Translations under genes and position numbers: made by a program
Shown here: positions 969 to 63,853 of the stretch, piece by piece
Layout of the letters: each line of letters begins with the position of its first letter
Position numbering within the stretch: the stretch's first letter is position 1
Assembly (NCBI GenBank): GCA_964016885.1
Contig: OZ024765.1
Location: 13,764,001-13,828,000 of the forward strand
Direction: 5' to 3'
Source of the DNA: Eledone cirrhosa
Taxonomy: Eukaryota
Length of the DNA: 64,000 bases
Notes under the pieces: model-generated
What the model was told of the DNA's origin: nothing
Databases searched by the model: none
Seen by the model: the letters and a program-made list of their open reading frames with translations, nothing else

Positions 969-1029
969 ATTTTCTTTTGACACATCTTGGACAACATTGG
1001 TTGGGTACATCATAGGAGAGTTCTTCATC
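969..1029 (-). CDS. Exon: VWC end (CCPRC)
   Basis: tttcag|GAT GAA GAA...AAA T|gtaagt; [20 protein letters not shown]; the gene continues past coordinate 1. Confidence 0.88.
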
Positions 1030-1299
1030 CTGAAAAGTTAACATCACAGATAGATAGATAGTTAGGTAGATAGATAGATAGATAGATAGCAACTAGTCTA
1101 ACTTGTAAAGTGATCATGCTGATAACACGATGAAAAAGTACCCAGTCCACCCTGTAAATGTTGTTGGTATTAGGAAGGGCATCTGGCTGTAAGAACCAAA
1201 CCATAAACAGTTCTGTATGGGTAAGACATGGTCTCTGATCTGACTTGTCTCACAATGAGACAACTCGTCTAACCCATGCTAGCATTGAAAATGGTGATG

Positions 1300-1331
<32 letters not shown>

Positions 1332-3053
1332 TTTGTGTGAATGTATGTGTACGTGTGTTTGTGTGAACGTATATGTGTTTTGGTTTGACTGTATGTGTGT
1401 TTTTGTGTGAATGTATGTGTGTTTTTGTGTGAATGTATGTGTTTGTGTGAATGTGTGTTTTCTGTGTGAGTGTATGTGTATGCTTGTGAATGTATGTCTG
1501 TTAGTGTGTATTTTTGTAAGTGTGTCTGTGTTTGCACGTTTATATTTATACACTCGCACGTTTATACTTATACACTCATACCATATAAATGTATTTGAGG
1601 GATCTGCGTGATGTGGACATGGATGTTTTCAGGAAACATCTTGACACCTTGCTATCCAGGATCCTAGATGAGCCCACAGCACGGTAGGAAGGTAACCTAA
1701 GGACAGCAGCAACGGACTCCCTCTTGCACCAATGGCCAGTCAACAAAGGGTGGAGATAGAATGTGTAGCAACAAGGGCGGTGCTCCTGCATGGCCACAAC
1801 CAGATGGCTGGAACAGGTAGAAGAGTAAAAGAGTATACACGCACACGTACATAAACATATGCGTCAGCAGGTTGAGAAAAATCCTAGTTTACTCTTTTAC
1901 TCTTTTACCAGTTCCCGTCATCCGGCTGAGGCCATGCTGGGGCACTGCCCTTGCTTTTTTACATCTAAAAATTATAACATACCGGTGAACATTTTTTGAT
2001 TTTGCAGACTCTGTTGCAAAGAATCTTTCCATTGACACATTCACATTGCTGGCACTCGTCTTCAGGGTTCGTCCAAATATCTTTGGGCTGGATTTTAAAA
2101 ATACAACAAAAAATACAATTCCAATAAATTATTAATGGTTTCTTATATAGACACAAGGCTAGCAATTTTGGGAGAGGGGAAAGTGGATTAAATCAACCCC
2201 AGTACATGACTAGTACTTTATTTTATTGACCCCGTAAGGATGATAAGCAAAGTTAACCTCGGCGGGAGAAATAAAAAATTTTTATCTGAAAAAAACGACT
2301 TTCCAGGCAAAAACCTCAAAATTTCACAGTCAATGAGGGTCACCTTGCAGTTGTCCGCTTGAGCTAAAGTTTTGCATACATTCGTTTTCTGTTAGTTGGA
2401 ACAAGATAGAGGGGTGGGAGCTAAACCTTTAGAAAGTTGAAAAATAAGGGCCACCCTAAATCATACACAAAACGCCAGCACCAACAGTTTTCCAAGAGAT
2501 GTCAACATGAATGGACCTATTTTCAAATTCCACCCCGCCCGTCCCCTCAATCTATCTTATTTCTCATTCTTTCTTCTGATGAAGGATTAGCATCCGAAAC
2601 GTTAAGACCCTCTTCCTGCTGTATCAAGCATTAACGTAATATATACCTTCCATATACTGTACCGATTGTGTTGTTTTTTTATTTTATTTATTTTTTTTTT
2701 TACATCCGCTTTTCCCTGCTTGCAAGGGTTATTTCTGTTTACCTTTTACATATATATATATAGTGCCCCAGTATGGCCACAGTCTAATGACTGGAACCAG
2801 TAAAAAAGTAATGTGTATATAATAAATCTAAGCCATTATTGTCCTAGACAGATTTAGCTTACATTTTTCATTTCATCGTTAACAAGACATCTTGTACATT
2901 CCCCTCCTGGGACACAGGTTCCATTCATGGTACGATAGAAACCTTCCTTACAGGAGCAGGAATTTACCATACATTCCGGAATTCCAAACATATCGAAGCA
3001 GAAATGTTCACAGCTGCTTTCTGTCCAGATTTCATTCTTCTTGCAATCTGAAA

Positions 3054-3094
<41 letters not shown>

Positions 3095-6000
3095 GTTTCT
3101 TATATAGGCACAAGGCCAGTAATTTGGGGGGGGAGGAGAAAGTCGATTAAATCGACCCCAGTGCGTGACTGGTATTTTATTTTATCGACTCCCGTAAGGA
3201 TGAAAGGCAAAGTTAACCTCGGCGGGATTTGAACTCATATTGTAAAGGGCCGTAACTCTATGCTGCAAAGCATGGCGTCTGACCCTCTACCGATACTGCC
3301 AATCCACCGCCCTTAATAATAATCATAATAATAGTTGTTTCTACTTTAGGCACAAGGCCAGCAATTACCCCAGTGCATTACTGGTACTTTATTTTATCGA
3401 CCCCGTAAGGATGAAAGGCAAAGTCAACCTCGGCGGGATTTGAACTCAGATTGTAAAGGGCCGTAACTCTATACGTCAAAGCATGGCGTCCGACCCTCTA
3501 CCGATACTGCCAATCCACCGCCCTTAATAATAATAATCATAATAATAATAATAATTGTTTCTACTTTTGGGGCAAGGCCAGCAATTACCCAGTGCATTAC
3601 TGGTACTTTATTTTATCGACCCCATAAGGATGAAAGGCAAAGTTAACCTCGGCGGGATTTGAACTCAGAATGGCAAGGGCCGTAACTCTATGCTGCAAAG
3701 CATGGCATCCAACCCTCTACCAATACTGCCAATCCACCAATAATAATAATAATAATAATGCTTTCTTTATTAACCACAAGGGTTGACACAAAGTATAACA
3801 TTAAGGACAGTACAGGACGGTACAAATGGGCATTTTTGCGTGTAAAAAACCCCCCCAAAACAGAGGATGTAACAAAAAAAAGAAAACAATGAAAATTCCC
3901 CAATTGGGAGGAGACCTCCGAGGGTCACTCGCGAAGAAAGCCCACAAAAAAGCCATGGTTACCCTGACCGCTAGGGCAAGTGCCCTCTTCCAGTTTTCCT
4001 CCTACGATGCTACAGGCACATGCTCAGGGTAGGCCCATTCACACAGGCCATTCTTGCCTGTCTCACCCACCTTTCAACAAACTGGCTGGAAGGCACCACT
4101 TCCCTCTATTATATATACTGGTGCATATAGTATATATACACTAGTATATATATATTATATATTATATATATATATATGAATATATTATATATATATGAAT
4201 TGCATCAATGTTTACCCTAATATATATATATATATACGATATTAAACAAATGGAAACTATATTTATAAAACCATATTTATTTCATTATACATATTTCGGG
4301 GATACCATATTAAAAATATGGCATGCCTTCGTCAGATAAAATACAATATATAAACAGTTTTATAAATAATTTTGACGTACCATAAATATGAGCGACCATT
4401 AGGTAGGAAGCTGGTTTGGTATATATATATATAACATCAAAATATTAATAAATATAGACATTCATGTGATCAAATATATTTTATTATATTTATATTTAAT
4501 AAAATATATTTGATCACATGAATGTCTATATTTATTAATATTTTGAAGTAATATTAATAACTCCAGAAAACCTATCTGTTGAGTGCTTCTAATCTATTGT
4601 AAAACTTTATTCATTGATTAATTCAATGAACCTTGTTAAACTTTTAATTATTTATATATATATATATATATATATGCAAAAGTTCTATTTAAAATTGTTG
4701 GGATACAACAAGTAAATATTTTTATAACTGATATAAAGCACTCGACAAGTATTTGGAATAGATATACGATATTAATAAATGGAAACTATATTTATAAAAC
4801 CATATTTATTTCATTATACATATTTCAGGGATACCAAATTAAATTATGGTATGCCTTCATCAGACAAAATACAATATATAACAGTTTTACAAATAAGCTT
4901 TGACGTACCCTTTTAAAATGCAACCATTATTTTTGGAAGCCAATGGTTGCATTTTAAAAGGGTACATCAAAGCTTATTTGTAAAACTGTTATATATTGTA
5001 TTTTGTCTGATGAAGGCATACCATAATTTAATTTGGTATCCCTGAAATATGTATAATGAAATAAATATGGTTTTATAAATATAGTTTCCATTTATTAATA
5101 TCGTATATATATATATATATAAAGGTTTACATATATATATATATATATAAAGTCATAGATATATATGTGTTTTGCAACGGGTCACGTTGTGGCTCAATGA
5201 AGAGTTAATAAATTAAATAATCAGAGCTATATATCATAAAACATGTCTATAGAATCACCAGATAAAAGCCTTTATTCTTATAGCTTGATCTAATTGATTG
5301 TTTATATGGTTAATTATGCTAATTGGGAGAGGAAACAGTATATATTTTATCTGGTGATTCTATAGACATGTTTTATGATATATATATATATATTAAGAAG
5401 ACCACGAAAAACATGGACAGAGGTGGTGAGAGCTGACCTCAGATTGCTGAAGCTCCACAGAGGAGATGACGAAGGACCATGATGAATAGAGAGATGTTGT
5501 GCTGAATAGGACCCGTCCCACCCTTGCAAGCAGGGAAAAGTGGACGTAAAATGATGATGATGACAAGAATGATACATACCGCAATCCATTACTCTACATT
5601 CTTCTGTATCCATTAAATTGCTTGGACAATCTTCTTTGGGGTTCTCCAAGATGGTCCTTTCTCTAACTTTTCTACCAGGTCCACAGCTAACAGAGCAAGG
5701 GGACCAAGGAGACCAATCTGTTATTTTACAGTTGGCTGAAACAGGAAACAAAACAAAGTTTTGGTGGTGGCCTAGTGGTAAGGGTATTTGTTTAAATTGA
5801 CCCCTGTATGTGACTGGTACTTCATTTTATCGACTCCATAAGGATGAAATGTAAAGCTAAGCTTGGAAGGATTTGAAATCAGAATGTAAAGGGCCATAAC
5901 TCTATGCCACAAAGCATAGTGCCTGACGCTCTACTGATACTACCAATCCACCGCCCTAATAGTAATAATAATAATGTTTCTACTTTTGGCAAAAGGCCAG

Positions 6001-7722
6001 CAATTTTACCAGTGCATTACTGGTACTTTATTTTATCGACCCCGTAAGGATGAAAGGCAAAGTTAACCTCGGTGGGATTTGAACTCAGACCATAAAGGGT
6101 CATAACTCTATGCTGCAAAGCATGGTGTCTGACCCTCTACCGATAATGCCAATCTGCCATAATAATAATATTAATAATAATAATAATAATAATGATAATA
6201 ATAATAATGTAACTCCTTACAGAGGCAGTTATCTGTGTTACAGGTCTTGTGCTGTTTCAGTTGGATGGAGCAATTAGATGAATCTTTAGGTAACAGTTTT
6301 CTAGTTCTGGTCTTTTCACCTGTGTTACAAGTTCTAGAACATTCTGTCCAGTTTGACCAATTTGACACAGTACAGCCTACAAAATAAGAAAAAGTGGTGC
6401 GGTGGTAGAGTATAGCAGGCTTAAACCCTTTCGGGACCAACACAGATATATATTTATTCACAAATACTTAGAAATATACACAATTTAATGAATCAGTAAC
6501 AGCATGAATGAATGACTATAAAATAATACGCTTTTCCCTCCCTTTTCCCATTACTTCTGATGGAGCCCATCCCTCTCCAGGTCTGAATATAGTAGATTTC
6601 TTCCAGAAAAAGATAGTAAGTGAGAGAGGAAGTGAGAAAGAGATATTGAGAAAGAACCCATCACAGTACTTGACTGGTACTTTTTTTATCAACCTCGCAT
6701 GTGATGTGCATGGAGGATGACTGCTGAGTAAAGAAGTGCCAAGAAATCCCAGTAGAAAGAAGACGTAGTAGAGGAAGACCACGAAAATCATGGACCGAGG
6801 TGGTGAGAACTGACCTCAAATCGCTGAAGCTCGCGGAGGAAATGACGAAGGACCTTGACGAATGGAGAGATGGTATGCTGAATAGGACCCGTCCCACCCT
6901 TGCAAGCAGGGGGGGGGGGGTGGTGGACATAAAATGATGATGATGATGATGATGATGACTACTTCTCCTCTGTACTCGATATCACTGGACATAAGCAGGA
7001 TACAAAACCCTTGGTCTGTCTGGGAGATCAGTAGCTCGGCTTTAGTACTAACTTGGTCTGTGTAGACCTGTCCAACCCTTGCTAGCAATGCTAAGGAAAG
7101 GAAGACCAACAAATACATGTCTATACCAATGCAGTATTCTCTCCCGCATACTACAGCTTATCCCTCTTATACAGTCATGTCTTTATATATATGGTTTCTT
7201 ATATAGGCACAAGGCCAGCAATTTTGGGGCGGGGGAAAGTCGATTAAATTGACCCCAGTGCGTGACTGGTACTTTATTTTATTGACCCTGTAAGGATGAA
7301 AGACATAGTTAACCTCAGCAGGATTTGAACTCAGATCATAAAGGGCCGTAACTCTATGCTGCAAAGCATGGCGTTCAGCCCTCTACTGATACTGCCAATC
7401 CACTGCCCTTCATGTCTTTATATATATATAAAACCAAATAATGAAGGAAACTTACATGGCACATCTGTGTTGCATAATTCTTCCTGTACATTGAGACCTT
7501 CACATAACTGACCCGAACATTTAGGTAGAGGGTTAGAACAGGTCCTTTCTCTCAGTCGCACCCCACCTAAACAACTGGAACTGCAGCCTGACCATTCACT
7601 CCATTTTGCCCAGTTACCATCAACTAGAAATGAAAACAAAAACAAAACAAAAAAAAAATCAATCACCAGGTGTTACTTACTCGGCGTTGCCATCTGCACA
7701 AAAAAGCAATAGTTAAGTGTTG

Positions 7723-7762
<40 letters not shown>

Positions 7763-8052
7763 ATAATAATAAAATTGAAGACTAAAATCCAAAGAGGGCT
7801 CGATAAGGAAAATATATATCAAATATATAAGAACCGAAGAGCAATATATTTATAAAAATTATAAAATTATAAAAATAGACAAAGAAGCCTTCAATACATC
7901 AAAAGTCTTTATTAGCCTACAATGTTTCGTCCCATTAATCAGGACTCATCAGGCTCTGTTGTATTACATTGAGCTATACCATATACTGTCATTTCTATAA
8001 TTCTATAATACGACGAGTGTGTTTTACTCAAAAGCACTCTTGTATTTTAATT

Positions 8053-8109
<57 letters not shown>

Positions 8110-11100
8110 GTGTGTGTGTGGAAGAATGGATGTAAAACGGTGATGATGATGATGATGATGAGAATGTATAATGTTAGAATGGTAATATTAGTGAAAGATC
8201 CAGTAAATTCTACGGTACTTACCAATTGCTAATGGTATTCTATTACAATAAGCTTTATTGTTTTGGCAATGGCTGTGGTTGAAATTGAAGAATAAAAGAA
8301 AAAAATATTATAAATTATAAATCTTCTACAAGATTTAAACAAATTTAGATTTAGATATAGTAAATATGGTGAGAATGGAAGTCCGAGGCCCAGTGGTAAG
8401 GACTTATGGTAATAATGTTGTGGGTTCAATTCCTGGATTGAGTTATGTGTTGTGTTCTTGAGCAAAACTGTTCCCTATCTTGACCATTTTCTTTTTTCTT
8501 CTTAGAGAAATTTATGTGGACACATCCAGACAACCTCAGCAAATGTTTAAAAACGTTCCGAATCAAATTTATCAATAGTTAATTTGAAAAGTTCCTGAAA
8601 TAACATGAACAACTTAAGAAATAGTAGGTTTTCTTAATAAAGCACACAACTTCTATAAGAGAAACGCATTTCTATTTACAACAATAATTTCTATTGAATC
8701 AAAAACATAATGTGAACACTGAACACTGAATATTGAACATTATTTTTGCCTAAGGGCGGTGAATTGGCAGTATTGGTAGAGGGTTGGACGCCATGCTTTG
8801 GCGCATAGAGTTACAGCCCTTGCCATTCTGAGTTCAAATCCCGCCAAGGTTAACTTTGCCTTTCATCCTTACAGGGTCGATAAAATAAAGTACCAGTAAT
8901 GTACTGGGTAATTGCTGGCCTTGTGCCTAAAGTAGAAACAATTATTTTTGCATAAGAGAGGATTTAGTGGCAGTTGGTATGTTTTATGGTTTTCGGTAAC
9001 GATCTGTAAAACAAATTATTTCTCAGTTTCATCTTTTGTGACAATGTTATTGTAATCCTGAATGAGTTTGACACCTCTTTCTGCAACATCATTCACAACA
9101 ACTGTCTTCTCAAGTTTTTCAAGTCCACTTTTGTAACCAGGATCATCCTTCCATGTTGAAGGGTCTTTGTCGAGGAAATCGGTGCTGATAGAAAATGTGT
9201 GTTGTGTTCTTGAGCAAAACACTTCATTTCACATTGCTGCAGTATACTCAGTTGAACATGAGTACCAGCAATAGTTGGTGGTGTTTAACCCTGCGATGGA
9301 CTGCCATCCTATCCAGGGGGAAGTCTTGTATGTGCAATTGCTTCAGACAAGGAAACCAGGTTATCACCGACTTGATGAGCCTCTGGCTTAAGACAGACTT
9401 TAGAAGAAATGTGGTAAGAAACCAGTGGCTTAGTGGTGAGAGAATTGGATTCACAATCGTGAGGTTGTGAAAATGATGAGAATGATGCTGATGATGAGGA
9501 TAAGAGTTAGAATGAAAGTGATAGAACATTACCATGTTTCACACTCTGTAGAATTGATAACTTCATCAATACGATAGTTCTTATCATTGACTCGACATTC
9601 TGGTACGCAGTTGGTGACGACACAGTCGGCTTTCTCTGCCAATGTTGTCAAGTTACAGCCAGAAGAGTGTTCCATCTCAATGGTTCTAGATGTTTTAATA
9701 AACAAACAAACATATTACAATCGCAGCCATTTTCTTACCATGTTTCTAATGAAAGACACAAACATATTAAACTCTCAACCATTTCCTTACCATGTTTCTA
9801 ATGAAAGACACAAACATATTAAACTCTCAACCATTTCCTTACCGTGTTTCTAATGAAAGACACAAACATATTAAACTCTCAACCATTTCCTTACCGTGTT
9901 TCTAATGAAAGACACAAACATATTAAACTCTCAACCATTTCCTTACCATGTTTCTAATGAAAGACACAAACATATTAAACTCTCAACCATTTCTTTACCG
10001 TGTTTCTAATGAAAGACACAAACATATTAAACTCTCAACCATTTCTTTACCGTGTTTCTAATGAAAGACACAAACATATTAAACTCTCAACCATTTCTTT
10101 ACCGTGTTTCTAATGAAAGACACAAACATATTAAACTCTCAACCATTTCCTTACCGTGTTTCTAATGAAAGACACAAATATATTAAACTCTCAACTTACC
10201 TGAACCGTTTCTTTATTCCTTTCCCACAAGATGTTTGGCAAACACTCCAGGAACTCCAGGGCATTAACGCACAACCTTTGAATAAGAAATTACATACACT
10301 ATATAATATACTTCTGCTATCTTATATATAATTGTTTCTACTTTAGGCACCAGGCCAGCAATTACCCAGTGCATTACTGGTACTTTATTTTATCGACCCC
10401 GTAAGGATGAAAGGCAAAGTCAACCTCGGCGGGATTTGAACTCAGATCGTAAAGGGACGTAACTGTGCTGGAAAGCATGGCGTCCGACCCTCTACCGATA
10501 CTGCCAATCCACCGCCCTTCTTATATATAATGGTTTCTTATAAAGGCACAAGGCCAACAATTTTGGGGGAGGGGAAAGTCGATTAAATCGACCCCAGTGC
10601 CTGACTGGTATTTTATTTTATCGACCCCCATAAGGATGAAAGGCGAAGTCAACCTCGGCGGGATTTGAACTCAGATCATAAAGGGCCGTAACTCTATGCT
10701 GCAGAGCATGTTGTACGATGCCCTACTGATACTGCCAATCTGCTGCCTGTTATCTAATATATAATTGTTTCTACTTCTGAACTCAGAATGGCAAGGGCCG
10801 TAACTCTATGCGTCAAAGCATGGCGTCCGACCCTCTACCGATACTGCCAATCCCCCGCCTTATCTAATATATAATGATTGGAGAACTGTGAGACTGTGTC
10901 CAGTTTATTATTTTACATTCATCATCATCATCATCATCATCTTCGTTTAACGTCCATCTTATATGCTAGCATGGGTTAGACGGGAGTTGTCCTACTTGAG
11001 GCAAGGTTGGTCGGGTGACCGTGTTTCGCTCATATAGAACTGTATCTGGCAGGTTTTCTACGGCTGGATGCCCTTCCTAACTCCAACCACATTTACAGTG

Positions 11101-11554: not shown

Positions 11555-11587
<33 letters not shown>

Positions 11588-17841: not shown

Positions 17842-17901
<60 letters not shown>

Positions 17902-18643: not shown

Positions 18644-18723
<80 letters not shown>

Positions 18724-19129: not shown

Positions 19130-19201
<72 letters not shown>

Positions 19202-19527: not shown

Positions 19528-19569
<42 letters not shown>

Positions 19570-20636: not shown

Positions 20637-20667
<31 letters not shown>

Positions 20668-21650: not shown

Positions 21651-21686
<36 letters not shown>

Positions 21687-21913: not shown

Positions 21914-21977
<64 letters not shown>

Positions 21978-43939: not shown

Positions 43940-44031
<92 letters not shown>

Positions 44032-44035
44032 AAAG

Positions 44036-44073
<38 letters not shown>

Positions 44074-56000: not shown

Positions 56001-59000
56001 GTAGCATTTACTAGACAAACTTGTGCATAACAACATACTTAGGGTTATATAGACAAAGACTATTGTGGAATATACTAGACAAACAAATGTATAACAACAT
56101 GGACAGAATTATATAGACACTGTTGTAGAATATACTATACAAACGTATGTATAATAAGTAATAATGTAGATGGGGTTATATAGACAAATGTTGGTTGTAA
56201 AATGTACGAGACAAACTTCAGTTTAATAACATAGACAAAATTATATACACTAAAATTGGGTGAATAACATACTAGACAAACTTCTATATAACAATATGAA
56301 CAGAGTTATATAGACAAAGACTGTTGTAGAATATACAAAACAAACTCACATGTAATAAGAAAGACAGCATTATAAAAACAAAGATTGGTTGTATAATATA
56401 CCAAAGAAACTTGTGTATAAAACCATAGAGAGAAATATATAGACAAAGACTGGTTGTAGAACATACTAGACAAACTTGTGTGTAACACCTAATAACATAG
56501 ATAGGGTTATATAGACAAAGATTGGTTGAAGAACATACTAGAAGGGATGACAGGAGATAAGACAATATTGACAAGATAGTAAATAATTCAGGGATGACAT
56601 CTTGACAAACAGGGCCAGCAATATCATGTCCTGTCATATTATATTACTGACAACAGATGAGAGATAATGTTGACAACACAGGGTTGACATGTTGACAGAG
56701 AGAACCAGAGTAACATGTCCTGTCATAATATATTACTGACAGCATATATGACAATTAGTATTGACAAGACAATCAACAATAAAGGGATGATATCTTGACA
56801 GACAGGGATGACATGTTGACAAACAGAGCCAGCAATAATAACATGTCCTCTTATAGTATATTACTTACGAAACAGTGGCTTAAAACAGCCATGTATATCC
56901 AGCATGAGTTTCACACTTTTACTAATATCATATCTCTCAGTTATCAATATTTGGATCTTGTGGACTTGGAAACCATTTGGGAAATATACAGTTTCAGTAG
57001 CAGAAAGTTTCTGAAAATATTGAAAATCATGTGAATCATTCTAAATATCATTATAGAACATTCTGCATAATTATTATGCTCCCATTGTCAAAATATACTA
57101 AGTATTATAACACGTAAGATACTAAAATCTCAAATGTGTTTGTAGATATTTTCATTTACTGCTAAATTATTTCAGGATGTTAAGAGTTAAAGAAATTAAT
57201 TTAATACGAGAATATTTAGTAATCTACATCATTTATTTATAATGTGAAGTCTCCTATAATATGACAGCTATATCAGTTAGAGAAGTTAAGGGTCAAAAGA
57301 CTTGCTTAGGGGAGGTTTTTTCTCTGAAAACCTTCAGCTGTCCAGCTCACCCGAGAGTTTCTTACGACTTTGATAATTTTATTTTTAAAATGTTCTATAA
57401 ACTGAAAATTATTTATATGAAGTCCCCTATATAATACAGTGACATAACTAAGTTAAAGAATTAATTAAATATTTGTTAATTTTATATAAAAATTATTTAG
57501 TAAACTTTGTAAACTATATATAATATGAAGCCCCCTATAAAAGACAGAGACATAATATGAAGTCCTCTATAAGAGACAGCAACCTAACATGAGGTCCTCT
57601 ATAAAAGATAGCAACATAATATGATGTCCCCTATAAAAGACAGCTATACAATGTGAAGTCCCCTATAATATGACTGTGACATAAGTGAGTTAAATACCTT
57701 TCCAAATGCTTGGAAATGTTCTTGCTCTATTTTCCTGTACATTAACATAAAACCTTTGATGTTTGTATGAACAATTAACTGCAAACTGGCCAAAGACACA
57801 TCATAATTCTCACTGAGTTGGACGGTAATAACAACAAGTGGAGCTGAACTCTCAAACACCTCCTGGTCACGTCTACCTTGGACTCCAACGGGTCTTAAAC
57901 GATATGTTGGTACAGTCTTGTCTGTAGTTTTTATCCACTCATCTTTGATGTAAACTGGACTTGATAAACCATTGCCTTTAACACAAGCCACCTCTCCCTC
58001 TGTGGGTGTTGTCGTGGTGGTTGTTGGTGCTGTTATTGTTGTTGTGGTGATTGTTGGTGTTGTTATTGTTGTTGTGGAGGTTGTTGGTTTCGTTGTTGTT
58101 GGTGTCGTTATTGTTGCTGTTGTTGGTGGTATTGTTGCTGTTGTTGGTGTTGTTCTTGTTGCTGTTGTTGGTGTTGTTCTTGTTGAAGTTGTTGGTGTTG
58201 TTGGTGTTGTTCCTGTTGGTGTTGTTCTTGTTGTTGATGATCTCTCTGTTGTTATTGTAGTTGGTGTTCTTGTTATAGCTGTTGTTGTTGTTGTTTGTGG
58301 AACTTCTAACAACAAGAGATGATATTTTCAACATGGTTAATTATATGAGTTATATAAAGGTTTTATATACGGTTGATATTGTGTAGATTATGTTGTTATG
58401 TTACATAGAGAGACAAGATCCAGACCTCCTTCATTTACTGAATGGAGTGGAACTTGTCAAATAAGACAGAATTATATAGACAAAGACTGGTTGCAAAATA
58501 TAAGAGACAAACTTGTGTATAACAATACAGACAGAATTATATAGACAAAGACTGGTTGAAAAATATAAGAGACAAACTTGTGTATAACAATACAGACAGA
58601 ATTATATAGACAAAGACTGGTTGTAAAATATAAGAGACAAACTTGTGTATAACAATATAGACAGAATTATATAGACAAAGACTGGTTGGAAAATATAAGA
58701 GACAAACTTGTGTATAACAATACAGACAGAATTATATAGACAAAGACTGGTTGTAAAATATAAGAGACAAACTTGTGTATAACAATATAGACAGAATTAT
58801 ATAGACAAAGACTGGTTGGAAAATATAAGAGACAAACTTGTGTATAACAATACAGACAGAATTATATAGACAAAGACTGGTTGTAAAATATAAGAGACAA
58901 ACTTGTGTATAACAATATAGACAGAATTATATAGACAAAGACTGGTTGCAAAATATAAGAGACAAACTTGTGTATAACAATACAGACAGAATTATATAGA

Positions 59001-62000
59001 CAAAGACTGGTTGAAAAATATAAGAGACAAACTTGTGTATAACAATACAGACAGAATTATATAGACAAAGACTGGTTGTAAAATATAAGAGACAAACTTG
59101 TGTATAACAATATAGACAGAATTATATAGACAAAGACTGGTTGGAAAATATAAGAGACAAACTTGTGTATAACAATATAGACAGAATTATATATACAAAG
59201 ACTGGTTGTAAAATACAAGAGACAAACTTATGTATAACAATACAGACAAAGATTAATTGTAGACTAAACTAGACAAACATTTGTGTAATAACATAGATAG
59301 GGTTATATAGACAAAGACTGTTATCGAATTTACTAGGCAAACTTGTATATAACAATAGATAAAGTTATATAGACCAAGATTGGTTGTAATACATAGAAAA
59401 CAAACTCGTGTATAACAATATAGACAGAATTATATAGACAAAGATTGGTGTAGAATTTACAAGACAAACTTATGTAATATAAGCAATAACATAAACAATG
59501 TTATATAGACAAAGACTGGTTGTAAAATAAATAAGAAAAACATGTATATAACAACATGTATAGAATTATATAGACCAGGAGTGTTATAGAACATACTATA
59601 TAAAGTTGTATTTAATAACATAGACAGAATTAGATAGACAAAGACTATTGTTGAACATACAAGATAAACACGTTTAATTACAAACAGAATTATATAGGCA
59701 AACATTTGTGTAGCATTTACTAGACAAACTTGTGCATAACAACATACTTAGGGTTATATAGACAAACACTATTGTGGAATATACTAGACAAACAAATGTA
59801 TAACAACATGGACAGAATTATATAGACACTGTTGTAGAATATACTATACAAACTTATGTATAATAAGTAATAATGTAGATGGAGTTATATAGACAAATGT
59901 TGGTTGTAAAATGTACGAGACAAACTTCAGTTTAATAACATAGACAAAATTATATACACTAAAATTGGGTGAATAACATACTAGACAAACTTCTGTATAA
60001 CAATATGAACAGAGTTATATAGACAAAGACTGTTGTAGAATATACGAAACAAACTCACATGTAATAAGAAAGACAGCATTATAAAAACAAAGATTGGTTG
60101 TATAATATACCAAAGAAACTTGTGTATAAAACCATAGACAGAAATATATAGACAAAGACTGGTTGTAGAACATACTAGACAAACTTGTGTGTAACACCTA
60201 ATAACATAGATAGGGTTATATAGACAAAGATTGGTTGAAGAACATACTAGAAGGGATGACAGGAGATAAGACAATATTGACAAGATAGTAAATAATTCAG
60301 GGATGACATCTTGACAAACAGGGCCAGCAATATCATGTCCTGTCATATTATATTACTGACAACAGATGAGAGTTAATGTTGACAACACAGGGTTGACATG
60401 TTGACAGAGAGAACCAGAGTAACATGTCCTGTCATAATATATTACTGACAGCATATATGACAATTAGTATTGACAAGACAATCAACAATACAGGGATGAC
60501 ATGTTGACAAACAGAGCCAGCAATAATAACATGTCCTCTCATAGTATATTACTTACGAAACAGTGGCTTAAAACAGCCATGTATATCCAGTATGAGTTTC
60601 ACACTTTTACTAACATCATATCTGTCAGTTATGAATATTTGGATCTTGTTGGCTTGGAAACCATTTGGGAAATATACAGTTTCAGTAGCAGAAAATTTCT
60701 GAAAATATTGAAAATCATGTGAATCATTCTAAATATCATTATAGAACCTTCTGCATAATTATTATGCTCCCACTGTCAAAATATACTAAGTATTATAATA
60801 CGTAAAATACTAAAATATCAAATGTGTTTGTAGATATTTTCATTTACTGCTAAATTATTTCAGGATGTTAAGAGTTGAAGAAATTAATTTCATAAAAGAA
60901 TATTTAGTAATCTACATCATTTATTTATAATGTGAAGTCTCCTATAAAATGACAGCTATATCAGTTAGAGAAGTTAAGGGTCAAAAGACTTGCTTAGGGG
61001 AGGTTTTTTCTCTGAAAACCTTCAGCTGTCCAGCTCACCCGAGAGTTTCTTACGACTTTGATAATTTTATTTTTAAACTGTTCTATAATCTCAAAAATAT
61101 TTATATGAAGTCCCCTATAAAAGACAGTGACATAACTGAGCTAAAGAATTAATTAAATATTTGTTAATTTTATATAAAAATTATTTAGTAAACTTTGTAA
61201 ACTATTTATAATATGAAGCCCCTATAAAAGACAGAGACATAATATGAAGTCCTCTATAAGAGACAGCAACCTAACATGAAGTCCCCTATAAAAGACAGAA
61301 ACATAATATGAAGTCTCCTATAAAAGACAGCTATACAATATGAAGTCCCCTATAATATGACTGTGACATAAGTGAGTTAAATACCTTTCCAAATGCTTGG
61401 AAATGTTCTTGCTCTATTTTCCTGTACGTTAACATAAAACCTTTGATGTTTGTATGAACAATTAACTGCAAACTGGCCAAAGACACATCATAATTCTCAC
61501 TGAGTTGGACGGTAATAACAACAAGTGGAGCTGAACTTTCAAACACTTCTTGGTCACGTCTACTTTGGACTCCAACGGGTCTTAAACGATATGTTGGTAC
61601 AGTCTTGTCTGTAGTTTTTATCCACTCATCTTTGATGTAAACTTCACTTGATAAACCATTGCCTTTAACACAAGTCACCTCTCCCTCTGTGGGTTTTGTT
61701 GTGGTGGTTGTTGGTGCTGTTATTGTTGTTGTGGTGGTTGTTGGTGTTGTTATTGTTGTTGTTGTTGGTGTTGTTATTGTTGCTGTTGTTGGTGGTATTG
61801 TTGCTGTTGTTGGTGTTGTTCTTGTTGCTGGTGTTGTTCTTGTTGAAGTTGTTGGTGTTGTTGATGATCTCTCTGTTGTTATTGTTGTTGGTGTTGTTGT
61901 TTGTGGAACTTCTAACAACAAGAGATGATATTTTCAACATGGTTAATTATATGAGTTATATAAAGGTTTTATATATGGTTGATATTGTGTAGATTATGTT

Positions 62001-63853
62001 GTTATGTTACATAAAGAGACAAGATCCAGACCTCCTTCATTGACTGAAGGGAGTGGAACTTGTCAAATAAGACAGAATTATATAGACAAAGAATGGTTGT
62101 AAAATATAAGAGACAAACTTGTGTATAACAATATAGACAGAATTATATAGACAAAGACTGGTTGTAAAATATAAGAGACAAACTTGTGTATAACAATATA
62201 GACAGAATTATATAGACAAAGACTGGTTGGAAAATATAAGAGACAAACTTGTGTATAACAATATAGACAGAATTATATAGACAAAGACTGGTTAGAAAAT
62301 ATAAGAGACAAACTTGTGTATAACAATATAGACAGAATTATATAGACAAAGACTGGTTGTAAAATATAAGAGACAAACATATGTATAACAATACAGACAA
62401 AGATTAATTGTAGACTAAACTAGACTAACATTTGTGTAATAACATAGATAGGGTTATATAGACAAAGACTGTTATCGAATTTACTAGGCAAACTTGTATA
62501 TAACAATAGATAAAGTTATATAGACCAAGATTGGTTGTAATATATAGAAAACAAACTCGTGTATAACAATATAGACAGAATTATATAGACAAAGATTGGT
62601 GTAGAATTTACAAGACAAACTTATGTAATATAAGCAATAACATAAACAATGTTATATAGACAAAGACTGGTTGTAAAATAAATAAGACAAACATGTATAT
62701 AACAACATGTATAGAATTATATAGACCAGGAGTGTTATAGAACATACTATATAAAATTGTATTTAATAACATAGACAGAATTAGATAGACAAAGACTATT
62801 GTTGAACATACAAGATAAACACGTTTAATTACAAACAGAATTATATAGGCAAACATTTGTGTAGCATTTACTAGACAAACTTGTGCATAACAACATATTT
62901 AGGGTTATATAGACAAAGACTATTGTGTAATATACTAGACAAACAAATGTATAACAACATGGACAGAATTATATAGACACTGTTATAGAATATACTATAC
63001 AAACTTATGTATAATAAGTAATAATGTAGATGGGGTTATATAGACAAATGTTGGTTGTAAAATGTATGAGACAAACTTCAGTTTAATAACATAGACAAAA
63101 TTATATACACTAAAATTGGGTGAATAACATACTAGACAAACTTCTGTATAACAATATAAACAGAGTTATATAGACAAAGACTGTTGTAGAATATACGAAA
63201 CAAACTCACATGTAATAAGAAAGACAGCATTATAAAAACAAAGATTGGTTGTATAATATACCAAAGAAACTTGTGTATAAAACCATAGACAGAAATATAT
63301 AGACAAAGACTGGTTGTAGAACATACTAGACAAACTTGTGTGTAACACCTAATAACATAGATAGGGTTATATAGACAAAGATTGGTTGAAGAACATACTA
63401 GAAGGGATGACAGGAGATAAGACAATATTGACAAGATAGTAAATAATTCAGGGATGACATCTTGACAAACAGGGCCAGCAATATCATGTCCTGTCATAGT
63501 ATATTACTGACAACAGATGAGAGTTAATGTTGACAACACAGGGTTGGTTGACATGTTGACAGAGAGAACCAGAGTAACATGTCCTGTCATAATATATTAC
63601 TGACAGCATATATGACAATTAGTATTGACAAGACAATCAACAATACAGGGATGACATGTTGACAAACAGAGCCAGCAATAATAACATGTCCTCTCATAGT
63701 ATATTACTTACGAAACAGTGGCTTAAAACAGCCATGTATATCCAGTATGAGTTTCACACTTTTACTAACATCATATTTGTCAGTTATGAATATTTGGATC
63801 TTGTTGGCTTGGAAACCATTTGGGAAATATACAGTTTCAGTAGCAGAAAATTT
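969..63853 (-). CDS. Partial multi-exon gene: giant secreted mucin / SCO-spondin-like protein ([Thr-rich + FA58C-like]n, PTS ~4500 aa, TSP1/TIL/VWC tail); 28 exons in window, both ends outside
   Basis: All 28 exons have AG/GT boundaries and compatible phases. Summed length is 19,951 nt (6650 codons + 1). TSP1 (WxxWxxC..C..G.R.R), TIL and VWC cysteine patterns are recognisable. Confidence 0.9.
1595..1740 (+). mobile_element. CR1-like LINE 3' remnant
   Basis: Translates [18 protein letters not shown]...AATDSLLHQ, resembling the CR1 ORF2 C-terminus; contains a stop. Confidence 0.6.
1983..2087 (-). CDS. Exon: VWC domain middle
   Basis: atccag|CCC AAA GAT...TCA CCG|gtatgt; [24 protein letters not shown]. 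Confidence 0.9.
2572..2608 (+). ncRNA. Minimal type I hammerhead ribozyme motif (Penelope-like)
   Basis: TCTT-CTGATGA-A-GGAT(TAGC)ATCC-GAAAC-GTT-AAGA: core, stem II, palindromic ACGT stem III and 4-bp stem I. Confidence 0.65.
2863..3047 (-). CDS. Exon: TIL-like domain + VWC start
   Basis: tttcag|AT TGC AAG...AAA AAT|gtaagc; [62 protein letters not shown]. Confidence 0.88.
3093..3740 (-). mobile_element. Three tandem tRNA-derived SINEs separated by (AAT)n
   Basis: On the minus strand: GGCGGTGGATTGGCAGTATCGG (A-box), GAGTTCAAATCCC (B-box), conserved GCCTTTCATCCTTACGGGGTCGATAAAATAAAGTACCAG body. Confidence 0.88.
4762..5108. repeat. Near-perfect inverted repeat, ~167-bp arms, 13-nt spacer
   Basis: 4762-4928 is the reverse complement of 4942-5108, with one mismatch seen. 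Each arm carries a CTGATGA...GAAA hammerhead-like motif. Confidence 0.92.
5395..5562 (+). mobile_element. RTE LINE 3' end
   Basis: [15 protein letters not shown]...[10 protein letters not shown] plus (TGA)n tail. Confidence 0.75.
5580..5735 (-). CDS. Exon: TSP1 #7
   Basis: tttcag|CC AAC TGT...TGC G|gtatgt; [25 protein letters not shown]. Confidence 0.92.
5795..6160 (-). mobile_element. Two tandem tRNA-SINE copies
   Basis: Same family as 3093-3740. Confidence 0.85.
6221..6376 (-). CDS. Exon: TSP1 #6
   Basis: ttgtag|GC TGT ACT...CTC T|gtaagg; [25 protein letters not shown]. Confidence 0.9.
6695..6958 (+). mobile_element. RTE LINE 3' end
   Basis: [36 protein letters not shown]...RTRPTLASR plus (GAT)n. 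Confidence 0.8.
7192..7410 (-). mobile_element. tRNA-SINE
   Basis: Same family as 3093-3740. Confidence 0.85.
7456..7623 (-). CDS. Exon: TSP1 #5
   Basis: ttctag|TT GAT GGT AAC TGG...CCA T|gtaagt; [34 protein letters not shown]. Confidence 0.92.
7913..7958 (-). ncRNA. Hammerhead ribozyme motif
   Basis: AGC-CTGATGA-GTCC(TGATTAATG)GGAC-GAAAC-ATT-GTA-GGCT; stem I is imperfect. Confidence 0.6.
8223..8272 (-). CDS. Micro-exon: VWC-like end ([16 protein letters not shown])
   Basis: ccacag|C CAT TGC...ATT G|gtaagt; phase 2 to 1 links both neighbours. Confidence 0.82.
8752..8942 (+). mobile_element. tRNA-SINE in opposite orientation
   Basis: Same family, on the plus strand. Confidence 0.85.
8950..9195 (-). 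pseudogene. DNA transposase C-terminal fragment (hAT-superfamily-like)
   Basis: [15 protein letters not shown]...[17 protein letters not shown]...[18 protein letters not shown]; in-frame stop; family assignment is from recalled motifs. Confidence 0.6.
9533..9685 (-). CDS. Exon: TSP1 #4 C-part + VWC-like start
   Basis: atctag|A ACC ATT...ACA TG|gtaatg; [51 protein letters not shown]. Confidence 0.87.
9725..10195. repeat. 52-bp minisatellite x~9 filling an intron
   Basis: Unit ACCATTTCCTTACCGTGTTTCTAATGAAAGACACAAACATATTAAACTCTCA. Confidence 0.95.
10200..10275 (-). CDS. Exon: TSP1 #4, N-part
   Basis: caaag|GT TGT GCG...TTC AG|gtaagt; [26 protein letters not shown]. Confidence 0.88.
10332..10860 (-). 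mobile_element. Three tandem tRNA-SINE copies (last internally deleted)
   Basis: Same family; separated by CTTATATATAAT/TATCTAATATATAAT target-like repeats. Confidence 0.85.
11683..11729 (-). CDS. Micro-exon: VWC-like end ([15 protein letters not shown])
   Basis: ttacag|T GTA TGC...CAC T|gtaaga. Confidence 0.85.
11847..12108 (-). CDS. Exon: TIL domain + VWC-like start
   Basis: cactag|AA ACT CCT...AAA TG|gtaagt; [66 protein letters not shown]...ECNKC. Confidence 0.9.
12195..13037 (+). mobile_element. RTE LINE 3' fragment containing a 36-39-bp minisatellite (12385-12990)
   Basis: RRKLA*FGHV...[28 protein letters not shown], then ~16 copies of GATGGACTATTTTGAGTGTGGGTATTGATGGC.., then a (TGA)n tail. 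Confidence 0.8.
13290..13457 (-). CDS. Exon: TSP1 #3
   Basis: ttccag|AT GAG TGG...ACA G|gtaaat; [30 protein letters not shown]. Confidence 0.9.
13885..14060 (-). mobile_element. tRNA-SINE
   Basis: Same family as 3093-3740. Confidence 0.85.
14217..14461. mobile_element. Two ~80-bp Tc1/mariner-type MITE copies
   Basis: TA-CAGGGTGTCCCCAAAAATGTATACAC...GTGTATA(C/T)ATTTT..GGGACACCCTG-TA terminal inverted repeats. Confidence 0.65.
14483..14647 (-). CDS. Exon: TSP1 #2
   Basis: ttccag|AA ATG GGC TGT...AAC A|gtaagt; [25 protein letters not shown]. Confidence 0.9.
15005..15640. repeat. 95-bp minisatellite x~6.5
   Basis: GGAAACAATG recurs at 15011, 15106, 15201 and onward. Confidence 0.95.
15808..15854 (-). 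CDS. Micro-exon: VWC-like end ([15 protein letters not shown])
   Basis: ttacag|T ACT TGT...AAA G|gtttgt; completes the CNNC-TC motif; phase 2 to 1. Confidence 0.85.
17998..18920 (-). mobile_element. RTE-type LINE fragments (5' UTR and rearranged 3' end) in (TA)n
   Basis: Minus strand has GGCAGAATTCTAGGAGAAGGAAAACTCTGA, a recalled RTE 5'-UTR motif. C-terminal peptides are [14 protein letters not shown] and [11 protein letters not shown]. Confidence 0.6.
18921..19915. repeat. Complex (TA)n/(TATACA) microsatellite field
   Basis: Read directly from the sequence. Confidence 0.95.
20870..21112 (+). mobile_element. tRNA-derived CORE-like SINE
   Basis: TGGCCTAGTGG A-box, GCTCGATTCC B-box, GTGTTGTGTTCTTGAGCAAAA body. 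Relatives lie at 8385-9405 (split) and 46850-47105. Confidence 0.75.
21219..21326 (-). ncRNA. Type I hammerhead ribozyme motif with extended stem II
   Basis: AGTCT-CTGATGA-TCTGATTAAG...CTTAATCAGA-GAAAC-AATT-GTT-AGACT: 5-bp stem I, 10-bp stem II and palindromic ACAATTGT stem III. Confidence 0.72.
21812..21872 (+). ncRNA. Degenerate minimal hammerhead motif in Penelope-like repeat
   Basis: ATTTTAT-CTGATGA...GAAA-TATATA-TA-ATAAAAT; stem II is degenerate; same repeat family as 4240-4400, 4760-5108 and 44365-44530. Confidence 0.45.
22298..22487 (-). mobile_element. tRNA-SINE
   Basis: Same family as 3093-3740. Confidence 0.85.
22649..22936 (-). CDS. Exon: TSP1 #1 C-part + VWC-like start with long insert
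   Basis: ctgcag|G ACA TGT...AAT TG|gtaacc; [11 protein letters not shown]...[19 protein letters not shown]...IGCNNC. Confidence 0.85.
23655..23839 (-). mobile_element. tRNA-SINE with ~18-bp TSD
   Basis: Flanked by TTACTTTGAATAAATAAT on both sides. Confidence 0.9.
25000..25280. repeat. 72-bp minisatellite (copy 1)
   Basis: GTGAGATATTATGTGAGGTAAAGCCTTTACTGTGAAAATACAATAG...; same unit at 45035-45690. Confidence 0.9.
25385..25572. repeat. 47-bp minisatellite x4
   Basis: GCAGTCAC recurs at 25398, 25445, 25492 and 25539. Confidence 0.9.
25769..25841 (-). CDS. Exon: TSP1 #1, N-part
   Basis: tttcag|AT TTT TGG...AAC AG|gtaaaa; [25 protein letters not shown]; too short for the ORF track. Confidence 0.9.
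25890..26888. repeat. 46-48-bp minisatellite x~21
   Basis: TTAACCCTTTCGTTACCATATTTCTAATGAAAGACACTGTCTATATCT. Confidence 0.95.
27254..40747 (-). CDS. Giant mucin (PTS) exon, 13,494 nt, ~4,498 aa of TTPAKG-type repeats
   Basis: Open 4510-aa ORF 27225..40757. An in-frame TGA precedes the ATG. The first AG after the pyrimidine tract is ttacag|GC CAA and the donor is ATC G|gtaagt; phase 1-1. Confidence 0.92.
40866..41278. repeat. ~19-bp minisatellite (GTGGTCACATGRTGTCTTT) x~20
   Basis: Read directly; lies ~120 bp upstream of the giant exon acceptor. Confidence 0.9.
41779..43701. mobile_element. piggyBac-type MITE cluster with internal 117-bp tandem repeat (42320-42955)
   Basis: Left ends TTAA-CCCTTTCGTT..; right ends ..GGTATCAAAAGGA-TTAA (43562) and ..GTATCGAAATGG-TTAA (43700). 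Confidence 0.65.
43060..43435 (-). mobile_element. RTE (Rex3/Expander-like) LINE fragment
   Basis: [17 protein letters not shown]...[21 protein letters not shown]...[14 protein letters not shown], with stops. Confidence 0.75.
45035..45690. repeat. 72-bp minisatellite (copy 2), interrupted by a SINE head
   Basis: Same unit as 25000-25280. Confidence 0.9.
46468..46609 (-). CDS. Exon B1: C-half of last FA58C-like domain
   Basis: 142 nt; ends in phase 1, compatible with the giant exon acceptor. Confidence 0.85.
47822..48384 (-). CDS. Exon A1: Thr-rich linker + N-half of FA58C-like domain
   Basis: 563 nt; ...[26 protein letters not shown]...[20 protein letters not shown]|gt. Confidence 0.88.
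49958..50099 (-). CDS. Exon B2: C-half of FA58C-like domain
   Basis: 142 nt with conserved splice sites. Confidence 0.85.
50792..51930 (-). CDS. Exon A2: expanded Thr-rich linker + N-half of FA58C-like domain
   Basis: 1139 nt, phase 1 to 0; (ACA/CCA/GCA)n expansion; within ORF 50738..51937. Confidence 0.88.
53615..53756 (-). CDS. Exon B3: C-half of FA58C-like domain
   Basis: 142 nt; same peptide as B4. Confidence 0.85.
54444..55051 (-). CDS. Exon A3: Thr-rich linker + N-half of FA58C-like domain
   Basis: 608 nt, nearly identical to A4; within ORF 54390..55061. Confidence 0.88.
56869..57010 (-). CDS. Exon B4: C-half of FA58C-like domain
   Basis: 142 nt; [47 protein letters not shown]. Confidence 0.85.
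57698..58305 (-). CDS. Exon A4: Thr-rich linker + N-half of FA58C-like domain
   Basis: 608 nt, phase 1 to 0; within ORF 57644..58315. Confidence 0.88.
58463..59250. repeat. 65-bp intronic minisatellite x~12 (~3-5 copies in sister units)
   Basis: AGACAGAATTATATAGACAAAGACTGGTTG.AAAATATAAGAGACAAACTTGTGTATAACAATA. Confidence 0.92.
60557..60698 (-). CDS. Exon B5: C-half of FA58C-like domain
   Basis: 142 nt with the same splice sites as B6; ...[35 protein letters not shown]. Confidence 0.85.
61385..61911 (-). CDS. Exon A5: Thr-rich linker + N-terminal half of FA58C-like domain
   Basis: ttgttag|AA GTT CCA...GGA AAG|gtattt; 527 nt, phase 1 to 0; within ORF 61331..61921. Confidence 0.88.
63712..63853 (-). 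CDS. Exon B6: C-terminal half of FA58C/discoidin-like domain
   Basis: tttcag|AAA TTT TCT...CTG TTT C|gtaagt; 142 nt; [56 protein letters not shown] resembles the LRLELYGC end of FA58C. Confidence 0.85.

What the first reader, a model, noticed from the sequence alone, without database searches (positions are those of the whole stretch)
969..63853. Giant chimeric mucin-spondin: discoidin/Thr array + 4,500-aa PTS + SCO-spondin-like TSP1/TIL/VWC tail
Seen: 28 phase-compatible exons give at least 6,650 aa in one frame. Established: vertebrate gel mucins interrupt PTS with CysD and end in VWD/VWC/cystine knot, while SCO-spondin has TSP1-TIL-VWC arrays and an FA58C but no huge PTS. This gene combines both designs. 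Inference: a lineage-specific polymer-forming secretion protein (skin mucus, egg coat or cement, sucker or gland secretion). Automated annotation may well split it into several genes.
Basis: partly seen in the sequence, partly recalled or inferred. Interest (0 to 1): 0.8.

Follow-up and report, generated by a model that had tools for sequence, protein, structure and literature searches.

The report
Giant octopus SCO-spondin-type mucin gene
Twenty-eight exons of an octopus-type genome read as one open frame of at least 6,650 amino acids (repeated discoidin-fold beads, a 4,500-residue threonine/proline rod, a SCO-spondin-like tail), likely one secreted, polymer-forming mucus glycoprotein whose basic design is known from other invertebrates but whose octopus relatives turned up only as fragments.

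Summary
Observation confirmed: 28 AG/GT exons on the minus strand (63853 to 969) give 6,650 aa without a stop. The repeated domain has no Pfam hit but folds as FA58C/discoidin (pLDDT 91; Z 14 to factor V/VIII C domains). An O. bimaculoides model matches the PTS end and the whole tail across all 16 junctions and ends in a cystine-knot pattern. An O. vulgaris model puts VWD-C8-TIL and LDLa in front of the same bead, and its D3 assembly is closest to vertebrate SCO-spondin. So this is not a fresh mucin/spondin chimera. It follows SCO-spondin's own domain order, with the FA58C multiplied and a giant rod inserted, a design known from lophotrochozoan mucins and flatworm adhesive protein 2. The array-to-PTS junction (46468>40747) is inferred, not shown; no RNA run was available. 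The rod misses the usual 40% Ser+Thr mark (32%). Tissue is unknown; a paralog is in O. vulgaris skin mucus. This scan noted the same design earlier on other DNA of this genome (unchecked notes). Verdict: new variant of a known kind, interest 0.35.

The parts
63712..63853 (-). Array exon B1: C-terminal third of a discoidin-fold bead (phase 0>1; alternative in-frame acceptor 30 nt upstream)
61385..61911 (-). Array exon A1: Thr-rich linker + N-terminal two thirds of bead (phase 1>0)
60557..60698 (-). Array exon B2
57698..58305 (-). Array exon A2
56869..57010 (-). Array exon B3
54444..55051 (-). Array exon A3
53615..53756 (-). Array exon B4
50792..51930 (-). Array exon A4 (longest linker, 284 aa, 62% Thr)
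49958..50099 (-). Array exon B5
47822..48384 (-). Array exon A5
46468..46609 (-). Array exon B6, last bead; GTAAGT donor identical to those of B1-B5
40748..46467 (-). 5,720-nt intron joining array to rod (junction inferred, not shown by RNA or by a relative's model)
27254..40747 (-). 13,494-nt exon: 4,498-aa Thr/Pro/Ser/Gly/Val/Glu rod, 218 TTP motifs, nested 1-2.8 kb repeats 92-98% alike, 0 Cys, 0 Asp, no N-glycan sequon
25769..25841 (-). TSP1 #1, first half
22649..22936 (-). TSP1 #1 second half + start of a short VWC/FnI-like module with an insertion
15808..15854 (-). End of short VWC/FnI-like module
14483..14647 (-). TSP1 #2
13290..13457 (-). TSP1 #3
11847..12108 (-). TIL #1 + start of short Cys module
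11683..11729 (-). End of short Cys module
10200..10275 (-). TSP1 #4, first half
9533..9685 (-). TSP1 #4 second half + start of short Cys module
8223..8272 (-). 50-nt exon that restores phase (2>1); end of short Cys module
7456..7623 (-). TSP1 #5
6221..6376 (-). TSP1 #6
5580..5735 (-). TSP1 #7
2863..3047 (-). TIL #2 + start of VWC
1983..2087 (-). VWC middle (Pfam E 9e-5, below cut-off)
969..1029 (-). VWC end; phase-1 donor; the cystine-knot exon is inferred to lie beyond position 1

Best explanation
The window holds the middle and most of the rear of what is likely a single octopod gene of the SCO-spondin lineage, whose product is predicted to be a secreted, disulfide-polymerised, O-glycosylated gel- or fibre-forming glycoprotein of a glandular epithelium. 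Shown: the open frame, the domain content, the discoidin fold of the bead (on a predicted model of the O. vulgaris copy), and the conservation of the PTS-to-tail exon chain in another octopus. Inferred from relatives: a signal peptide, three VWD-C8-TIL assemblies and about five LDLa repeats upstream, and an 11-Cys cystine knot downstream. Inferred from von Willebrand factor and mucin biology: cystine knots join monomers tail to tail and VWD assemblies join dimers head to head. The Cys-free rod and Thr linkers would be O-glycosylated into stiff hydrated spacers. The beads would act as spaced non-covalent binding points, in the place that CysD takes in vertebrate mucins. TSP1/TIL/VWC would bind matrix or glycosaminoglycans and resist proteases. 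The bead array and the rod grew by tandem duplication, with homogenisation of copies within each lineage.
For: One open frame over 28 exons. Tail: 523 of 721 residues identical to O. bimaculoides XP_014769815.1, colinear over all 16 junctions from the rod onward, including 27254>25841; that model carries the same TTPAKG-type rod before TSP1 #1. Front: O. vulgaris CAI9742241.1 has VWD, C8, TIL, 5 LDLa, a Thr stretch, then the bead at 71-73% identity. Its VWD3-C8-TIL stretch scores 173-216 bits against 12 of the 14 vertebrate SCO-spondins that returned a hit there (the other two 54 and 66; 22 long tail homologues given), against 82-120 bits for single-D3 chains of VWF, MUC2, MUC5AC and MUC5B. 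Its C8/TIL cysteine pattern matches SCO-spondin residue for residue. Bead fold: pLDDT 90.8; Foldseek best factor VIII, E 1.5e-6; VIA Z 14.1, rmsd 3.4 over 139 residues. Single gene: the B6 donor equals the five donors that must splice on; no further bead lies in the 5.7-kb intron; the first AG after the pyrimidine tract gives the right phase; the rod's own Met starts no hydrophobic leader. A paralog model (A0A7E6FK29) carries both VWD-type and TSP1-type peptides in O. vulgaris skin mucus. Lineus XP_064639835.1 has 3 VWD followed by 13 related beads in Thr linkers.
Against: No transcript or protein model spans bead to rod; all 5 informative relatives are fragments. The rod has Ser+Thr 32%, below the typical 40%. 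Pfam does not call the cystine knot of the O. bimaculoides model at E 0.1; it rests on an 11-Cys pattern. None of 11 short motifs specific to this gene or its orthologs was found in the stored, truncated skin-mucus table; a twelfth shared motif hit only the paralog, so skin mucus is not supported for this gene. One hydrophobic ATG frame at 46443-46344 with a weak donor exists in the intron. It lies in sequence shared with the other unit introns and I read it as chance, but it is not excluded. Among bead copies, amino-acid changes are not depleted (18 in 344 sites vs 5 silent in 91), which does not suggest a tightly constrained binding site.
Confidence: 0.68

Rival explanations
1. Two genes in tandem: a VWD-LDLa-bead mucin that ends after B6, and a separate PTS-TSP1-cystine-knot gene.
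For: Every database model found is one half or the other. Reading through the B-exon donor gives a stop after two codons, which is how both Argonauta models end. Limpet pedal mucus yielded the two halves as separate transcripts with FPKM 2 and 1,147, the front one with a stop codon (PMC7333891 Table 2).
Against: The same read-through stop follows all six B exons. The rod exon has a phase-matched acceptor and no leader of its own. The rear-half models lack a signal peptide (P0005 by inspection; P-vulgata_6). SCO-spondin, Mlig-ap2 and paralog A0A7E6FK29 hold both halves in one chain. Repeat-rich adhesive genes are reported to assemble as two unconnected halves (PMC9229212).
Confidence: 0.12
2. 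It is the octopus's neural or internal-matrix SCO-spondin (Reissner-type fibre protein), not an external secretion.
For: The D3 assembly of the O. vulgaris ortholog is closest to vertebrate SCO-spondin. SCO-spondin expression is reported in radial glia-like cells of an annelid (PMC5543218). The ortholog's motifs were absent from the stored part of a skin-mucus table.
Against: About 78% of the modelled chain is Cys-free rod or Thr linker, unlike the domain list of vertebrate SCO-spondin (PMC8487547). SCO-spondin-like proteins occur in limpet, snail and octopus mucus, and the limpet one is made in pedal glands. The annelid paper notes that such glia are absent from subepidermal ganglia.
Confidence: 0.13
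3. The array or rod is inflated by misassembly, or the locus is decaying.
For: Units are 90-99.7% alike including introns; pN/pS among beads is about 1.
Against: Copies differ from each other. There is no stop in 6,650 codons and all splice sites are intact. Genomic contigs over bead exons are 6-9 times deeper than neighbouring unique contigs in 3 runs of one sample, which may be the source sample (a weak hint only). Argonauta and Lineus have their own homogenised arrays.
Confidence: 0.05

Closest known systems
Octopus bimaculoides 'SCO-spondin' XP_014769815.1 (P0005), O. vulgaris 'mucin-2-like' CAI9742241.1 (P0002), Argonauta hians GAB1608769.1/GAB1608770.1
   Same: Likely orthologous fragments: tail 72.5% identical and colinear; bead 71-73% (O. 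vulgaris) and 62-65% (Argonauta) identical.
   Different: Each is a partial automatic model; none shows the 13.5-kb exon in full or joins bead to rod.
Vertebrate SCO-spondin (SSPO; PMC8487547, passages read)
   Same: Same inferred order: VWD-C8-TIL, LDLa, FA58C, TSP1/TIL/VWC, cystine knot; closest D3 assembly of those compared.
   Different: One FA5/8C, 27 TSR and 13 LDLa in chick, and no PTS in the paper's domain list; here at least 6 beads, 7 TSP1 and about 5,200 aa of rod and linkers.
Lophotrochozoan gel-forming mucin-like proteins (Lang et al. 2016, PMC4948705; passages, section 15, supplement text) and Lineus longissimus XP_064639835.1
   Same: F5/8C is described as characteristic of lophotrochozoan mucins, and invertebrate mucins as nearest to SCO-spondin; Lineus has 3 VWD plus 13 related beads in Thr linkers.
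   Different: Lang et al. report CysD beside the F5/8C, and none is in the window. Octopus is not named in the main text or supplement file 2. The beads here fall below Pfam detection.
Flatworm adhesive protein 2 (Mlig-ap2 14,794 aa, PMC6410801; Tmed-ap2 7,228 aa, PMC9229212; passages read)
   Same: N-terminal VWD/TIL/LDLa (Mlig), long central arrays of 220-330-aa repeats, C-terminal TSP1 (and TIL), O-glycosylation.
   Different: Homology of their repeats to this bead was not tested here; Tmed-ap2 is 22.5% Lys, whereas this rod is slightly acidic (pI 5.5).
Octopus mucin-19-like A0A7E6FK29 / LOC115224399 (skin mucus proteome, PMC10138644 supplement)
   Same: One model with VWD-type and TSP1-type peptides, found in skin mucus (17 spectrum rows seen).
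   Different: The peptides differ from P0002 and P0005 by inspection, so it is a paralog; its full sequence was not fetched.
Vertebrate gel-forming mucins MUC2/MUC5AC/MUC5B
   Same: VWD front, PTS rod punctuated by small globular domains, VWC and cystine-knot end (PMC4948705).
   Different: CysD rather than discoidin beads; no TSP1 or LDLa in the paper's description; weaker D3 match.
Hemolectin/hemocytin (3+2 VWD; PMC4948705)
   Same: F5/8C after three VWD-C8-TIL units.
   Different: Two further VWD units follow the F5/8C there; here TSP1/TIL/VWC follow instead.

Membership tests
Gel-forming mucin | Three N-terminal VWD-C8-TIL assemblies | tested here: inconclusive
   Outside the window; the O. 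vulgaris ortholog model has 2 VWD, 1 C8 and 2 TIL stretches, Lineus has 3 VWD.
Gel-forming mucin | PTS with Ser+Thr at least 40% and Pro over 5% (PMC4948705): array linkers | tested here: met
   5 of 5 linkers have Thr 55-62%, Ser 3-4%, Pro 12-14%.
Gel-forming mucin | The same criterion: 4,498-aa rod | tested here: not met
   Ser+Thr 32%; 0 of 4,399 windows reach 40%, 4,132 reach 30% with Pro at least 5%.
Gel-forming mucin (MUC2/MUC5 type) | CysD (Mucin2_WxxW) inside the PTS | tested here: not met
   Rod has 0 Cys; all 7 WxxW matches lie in the tail; no Pfam hit.
Gel-forming mucin / SCO-spondin | C-terminal cystine knot | tested here: inconclusive
   Beyond position 1; the O. bimaculoides model ends in an 11-Cys pattern like that of SCO-spondin, not called by Pfam.
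Gel-forming mucin / SCO-spondin | Signal peptide, secretion, O-glycosylation, disulfide polymers | not testable with these tools
   5' end outside the window; no genome, no RNA holder.
SCO-spondin | LDLa cluster after the VWD assemblies and SCO-spondin-type D3 | tested here: met
   On the ortholog model only: 5 LDLa; D3 173-216 bits vs 82-120 for mucins and VWF. No tree with outgroups was built.
SCO-spondin | FA58C followed by TSP1, TIL and VWC | tested here: met
   Beads, then 7 TSP1, 2 TIL and VWC; the joining intron is inferred.
SCO-spondin (vertebrate form) | Single FA5/8C, about 27 TSR, no PTS in the domain list (PMC8487547) | tested here: not met
   At least 6 beads, 7 TSP1, giant rod.
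SCO-spondin (vertebrate form) | Secretion by subcommissural organ or radial glia | not testable with these tools
   No expression data.
FA58C/discoidin domain | Pfam PF00754 above cut-off | tested here: not met
   0 families for window halves and for the O. vulgaris domain; Argonauta E 0.0027, 18.3 bits vs cut-off 28.2.
FA58C/discoidin domain | Beta-sandwich fold of factor V/VIII C, neuropilin b, DDR DS | tested here: met
   Predicted model of the O. vulgaris copy: Foldseek E 1.5e-6, VIA Z 13-14 for the top 18 rows, 17 of them discoidin-type domains; Atlas agrees.
FA58C/discoidin domain | Ligand site (lipid, glycan, peptide) | not tested
   Identity to solved domains is only 10-18%; no ligand can be assigned.
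Hemolectin (3+2 VWD) | Two VWD-C8-TIL units after the F5/8C | tested here: not met
   No VWD or C8 hit in the exons scanned; the tail is colinear with P0005, which has none.
Flatworm ap2 adhesive | Sequence homology of central repeats; expression in adhesive glands | not tested

The most novel reading that the evidence does not exclude
Octopods, limpets, nemerteans and flatworms share one overlooked family of giant SCO-spondin-lineage secretory proteins. In it, Pfam-invisible discoidin beads take the role of CysD as reversible cross-links, and this gene is the octopod glue or cement member. The published 'truncated SCO-spondin' of limpet adhesive mucus (P-vulgata_3) and its TSP1/cystine-knot companion (P-vulgata_6) would then be two ends of one such gene, and the Reissner-fibre protein a de-mucinised descendant of a glandular gel or adhesive protein.
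Probability: 0.25. Interest if true: 0.6.

Novelty: new variant of a known kind. Interest (0 to 1): 0.35.

Why it matters
It supplies a nearly continuous model of a gene whose octopod relatives appear in the databases searched only as disconnected, differently named fragments. It shows that the repeated middle domain is a discoidin fold that Pfam misses. It gives a concrete test of whether SCO-spondin-like halves reported from mollusc mucus and adhesives are single giant genes, which bears on the origin of SCO-spondin and on the make-up of cephalopod secretions. It is not a new kind of protein: the design is already described for lophotrochozoan mucins and flatworm ap2.

Tried and rejected
No whole genome is held, so the 5' and 3' flanks could not be read. 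No RNA holder listed. The three runs X1-X3 (one sample) behave as genomic DNA and show no splice joints. Bead homodimer prediction gave no answer (score 0.01) and is not used either way. A search for a long protein holding both bead and tail found none: 120 of 230 long tail homologues were fetched (1,816-5,000 aa only), and none matched the bead profile at a domain E under 1. This is weak, because a full-length product would exceed 5,000 aa and the profile is narrow. Two weak hits of the bead search (P0010, P0011) are PKD/Ig and InlB-repeat proteins and were rejected as chance. Other open frames over the rod and array (plus strand, Asn- or Gln-rich frames) were rejected as shadows of the repeat. 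Candidate extra exons in the large introns were microsatellite or repeat frames. A count of indel lengths between rod repeats was uninformative. The O. maya oviducal-gland paper gave no mention of such a transcript in the passages found. Paper searches: octopus+mucin+discoidin, 0 papers; SCO-spondin+mucin+PTS+invertebrate, 2; SCO-spondin-like/mucin/tandem/F5_F8/lophotrochozoa at 4 of 5 terms, 1. None described this gene; subscription journals were not covered. Supplements not seen may bear on novelty and tissue: the drawings of Lang 2016 Figs S4/S5 and its file 1, the PMC11431876 supplement, the cut part of the PMC10138644 table.

Full report
1. The observation. I rebuilt the gene on the minus strand. 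A 50-nt exon at 8272-8223 is needed to keep the frame. The 13,494-nt exon at 40747-27254 has no stop, against 366 and 311 in its other two frames and about 64 in position-shuffled codons. Pfam on 18 exon translations gives seven TSP1 and two TIL above cut-off and one VWC below it. Both ends of the gene are outside the window, no genome is held, and no RNA run holds the sequence. The organism is an octopod by inference from its relatives.

2. The array. Each unit is a two-exon cassette: a Thr linker plus the first two thirds of a 139-aa domain, then the last third. Five whole domains and the end of a sixth are in the window. Pfam finds nothing for the window halves or for the matching O. vulgaris domain. 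An AlphaFold model of the O. vulgaris copy (71-73% identical to ours) has mean pLDDT 90.8. It matches factor VIII/V C domains, neuropilin b1/b2, CASPR2 and DDR discoidin domains: Foldseek E 1.5e-6; VIA Z 14.1, rmsd 3.4 over 139 residues; the Atlas agrees. Copies are 91-99% identical as protein within this genome and 99-100% within Argonauta, but 62-73% between species; the intron inside each unit is 90-99.7% alike between copies. This is the pattern of tandem duplication with homogenisation. Among copies there are 18 replacement changes in 344 sites and 5 silent in 91, a ratio near 1; omega 0.3 or lower is unlikely (P 0.012; small numbers, changes not independent). Genomic contig depth over bead exons is 6-9 times that of adjacent unique contigs, a weak hint that the array is real and perhaps a little longer than the window shows.

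3. The rod. It has 4,498 aa: Thr 21, Pro 13, Ser 11, Gly 9, Val 9, Glu 8%, 218 TTP motifs at 8-26-aa spacing, nested repeats of 1-2.8 kb at 92-98%, pI 5.5. It has no Cys, no Asp and no N-glycan sequon. It misses the typical 40% Ser+Thr of mucin PTS stated in PMC4948705 (0 of 4,399 windows), while the array linkers pass. I therefore call it PTS-like; O-glycosylation is inferred.

4. Relatives fix the rest of the architecture. The unique tail exon finds one protein, O. bimaculoides XP_014769815.1 'SCO-spondin'. It begins in a rod with the same motif and runs straight into TSP1 #1, aligns with our spliced tail at 523 of 721 residues over all 16 junctions, and continues into an 11-Cys knot pattern like that of SCO-spondin (Pfam does not call the knot). 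It is a predicted model and I could not see its RNA support. The bead finds O. vulgaris CAI9742241.1, with VWD, C8, TIL, five LDLa and a Thr stretch before one bead. It also finds two adjacent two-bead Argonauta models and a Lineus mucin with three VWD units and 13 related beads. The O. vulgaris D3 stretch scores 173-216 bits against 12 of 14 vertebrate SCO-spondins with a hit there, 134 against Lineus, and 82-120 against single-D3 chains of VWF and MUC2/5AC/5B; its cysteine-rich core is almost identical to SCO-spondin's. No outgroup tree was built. The whole order, VWD-C8-TIL, LDLa, FA58C, TSP1/TIL/VWC, knot, is that of SCO-spondin (PMC8487547, passages).

5. One gene or two. The junction 46468>40747 is the unproven link. 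For it: a donor identical to the five that must splice on, no further bead in the intron, a phase-matched first AG after a pyrimidine tract, and no leader on the rod's Met. A paralog model, A0A7E6FK29, also carries both VWD-type and TSP1-type peptides (17 spectrum rows of the 108 mentions seen, assigned by eye and by co-listed transcripts). Against it: all related models are halves, and a hydrophobic ATG frame with a weak donor sits at 46443-46344. I put a single gene at about 0.85.

6. How it likely works. By analogy with VWF and mucins (PMC8487547): knots dimerise the tails, VWD assemblies link the dimers, the glycosylated rod and linkers hold water and set mesh size, beads give spaced non-covalent contacts as CysD is thought to do (recalled), and TSP1/TIL/VWC tie the polymer to matrix. 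All of this is inferred. Tissue is open. SCO-spondin-like proteins are reported in octopus skin mucus (PMC10138644 and PMC11431876, passages), limpet pedal mucus (PMC7333891, passages and Table 2) and snail mucus (PMC10475054, passages). But 11 motifs of this gene or its orthologs were absent from the stored, truncated skin table, where only the paralog appeared. A neural role, as reported for an annelid SCO-spondin (PMC5543218, passages), is the main functional rival.

7. What is known. Lang et al. 2016 (passages, section 15 whole, supplement text without drawings) state that F5/8C is characteristic of lophotrochozoan mucins and that invertebrate mucins are closest to SCO-spondin. Mlig-ap2 has VWD/TIL/LDLa, 46 central repeats and C-terminal TSP1 (PMC6410801, passages); Tmed-ap2 is similar and needed a genome to be joined (PMC9229212, passages). 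No paper on this octopod gene came up in seven searches. Unchecked notes of this scan describe the same design on another piece of this genome and other bead arrays; my bead query found no look-alike window, so I take those for divergent paralogs.

8. Verdict. The feature is real and well built. The chimera reading is replaced by an expanded SCO-spondin-lineage mucin. It is a new variant of a known kind; interest 0.35. The boldest reading left open, a shared family of bead-cross-linked secretory giants whose published halves are single genes, gets probability 0.25 and interest 0.6.

Noticed in passing
window 27254-40747 (-): 376 Glu codons but no Asp codon, no Cys and no AAC codon in 4,497 codons, although repeat copies differ by 2-8% (about 113 Asp expected from position shuffles, repeats not independent). 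Suggests selection against Asp; reason unknown.
   Followed up: partly
window 63883/63853 and the five other B exons: Two in-frame acceptors 30 nt apart are kept in all six copies; the upstream one would add 10 aa inside the bead. Only the downstream one is seen in relatives' models.
   Followed up: partly
window 22649-22936 (-): The first short VWC/FnI-like module carries an insertion of about 35 aa that is well conserved in O. bimaculoides and has no Pfam hit.
   Followed up: no
window 46344-46443 (-): Hydrophobic ATG-started frame just behind the B6 donor, in intron sequence shared with other units; weak donor.
   Followed up: partly
window 12394-12990 (-): Intronic 39-bp tandem repeat (15.6 copies) that gives a 268-aa open frame rich in Thr/Asn/Ser/His; not part of the chain conserved in O. 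bimaculoides.
   Followed up: no
window 9691-10195, 25889-26887, 42262-42950: Three intronic minisatellites (52, 48 and 117 bp units) share a common core sequence.
   Followed up: no
same piece, about 134 kb before window position 1 (note e1-8670757): Another mucin-type gene is noted on the same piece, which would make a mucin cluster; not checked.
   Followed up: no
P0008 (Lineus longissimus XP_064639835.1): 4,464-aa model with 13 bead-related domains, many identical, alternating with LDLa; Pfam misses them as well.
   Followed up: partly
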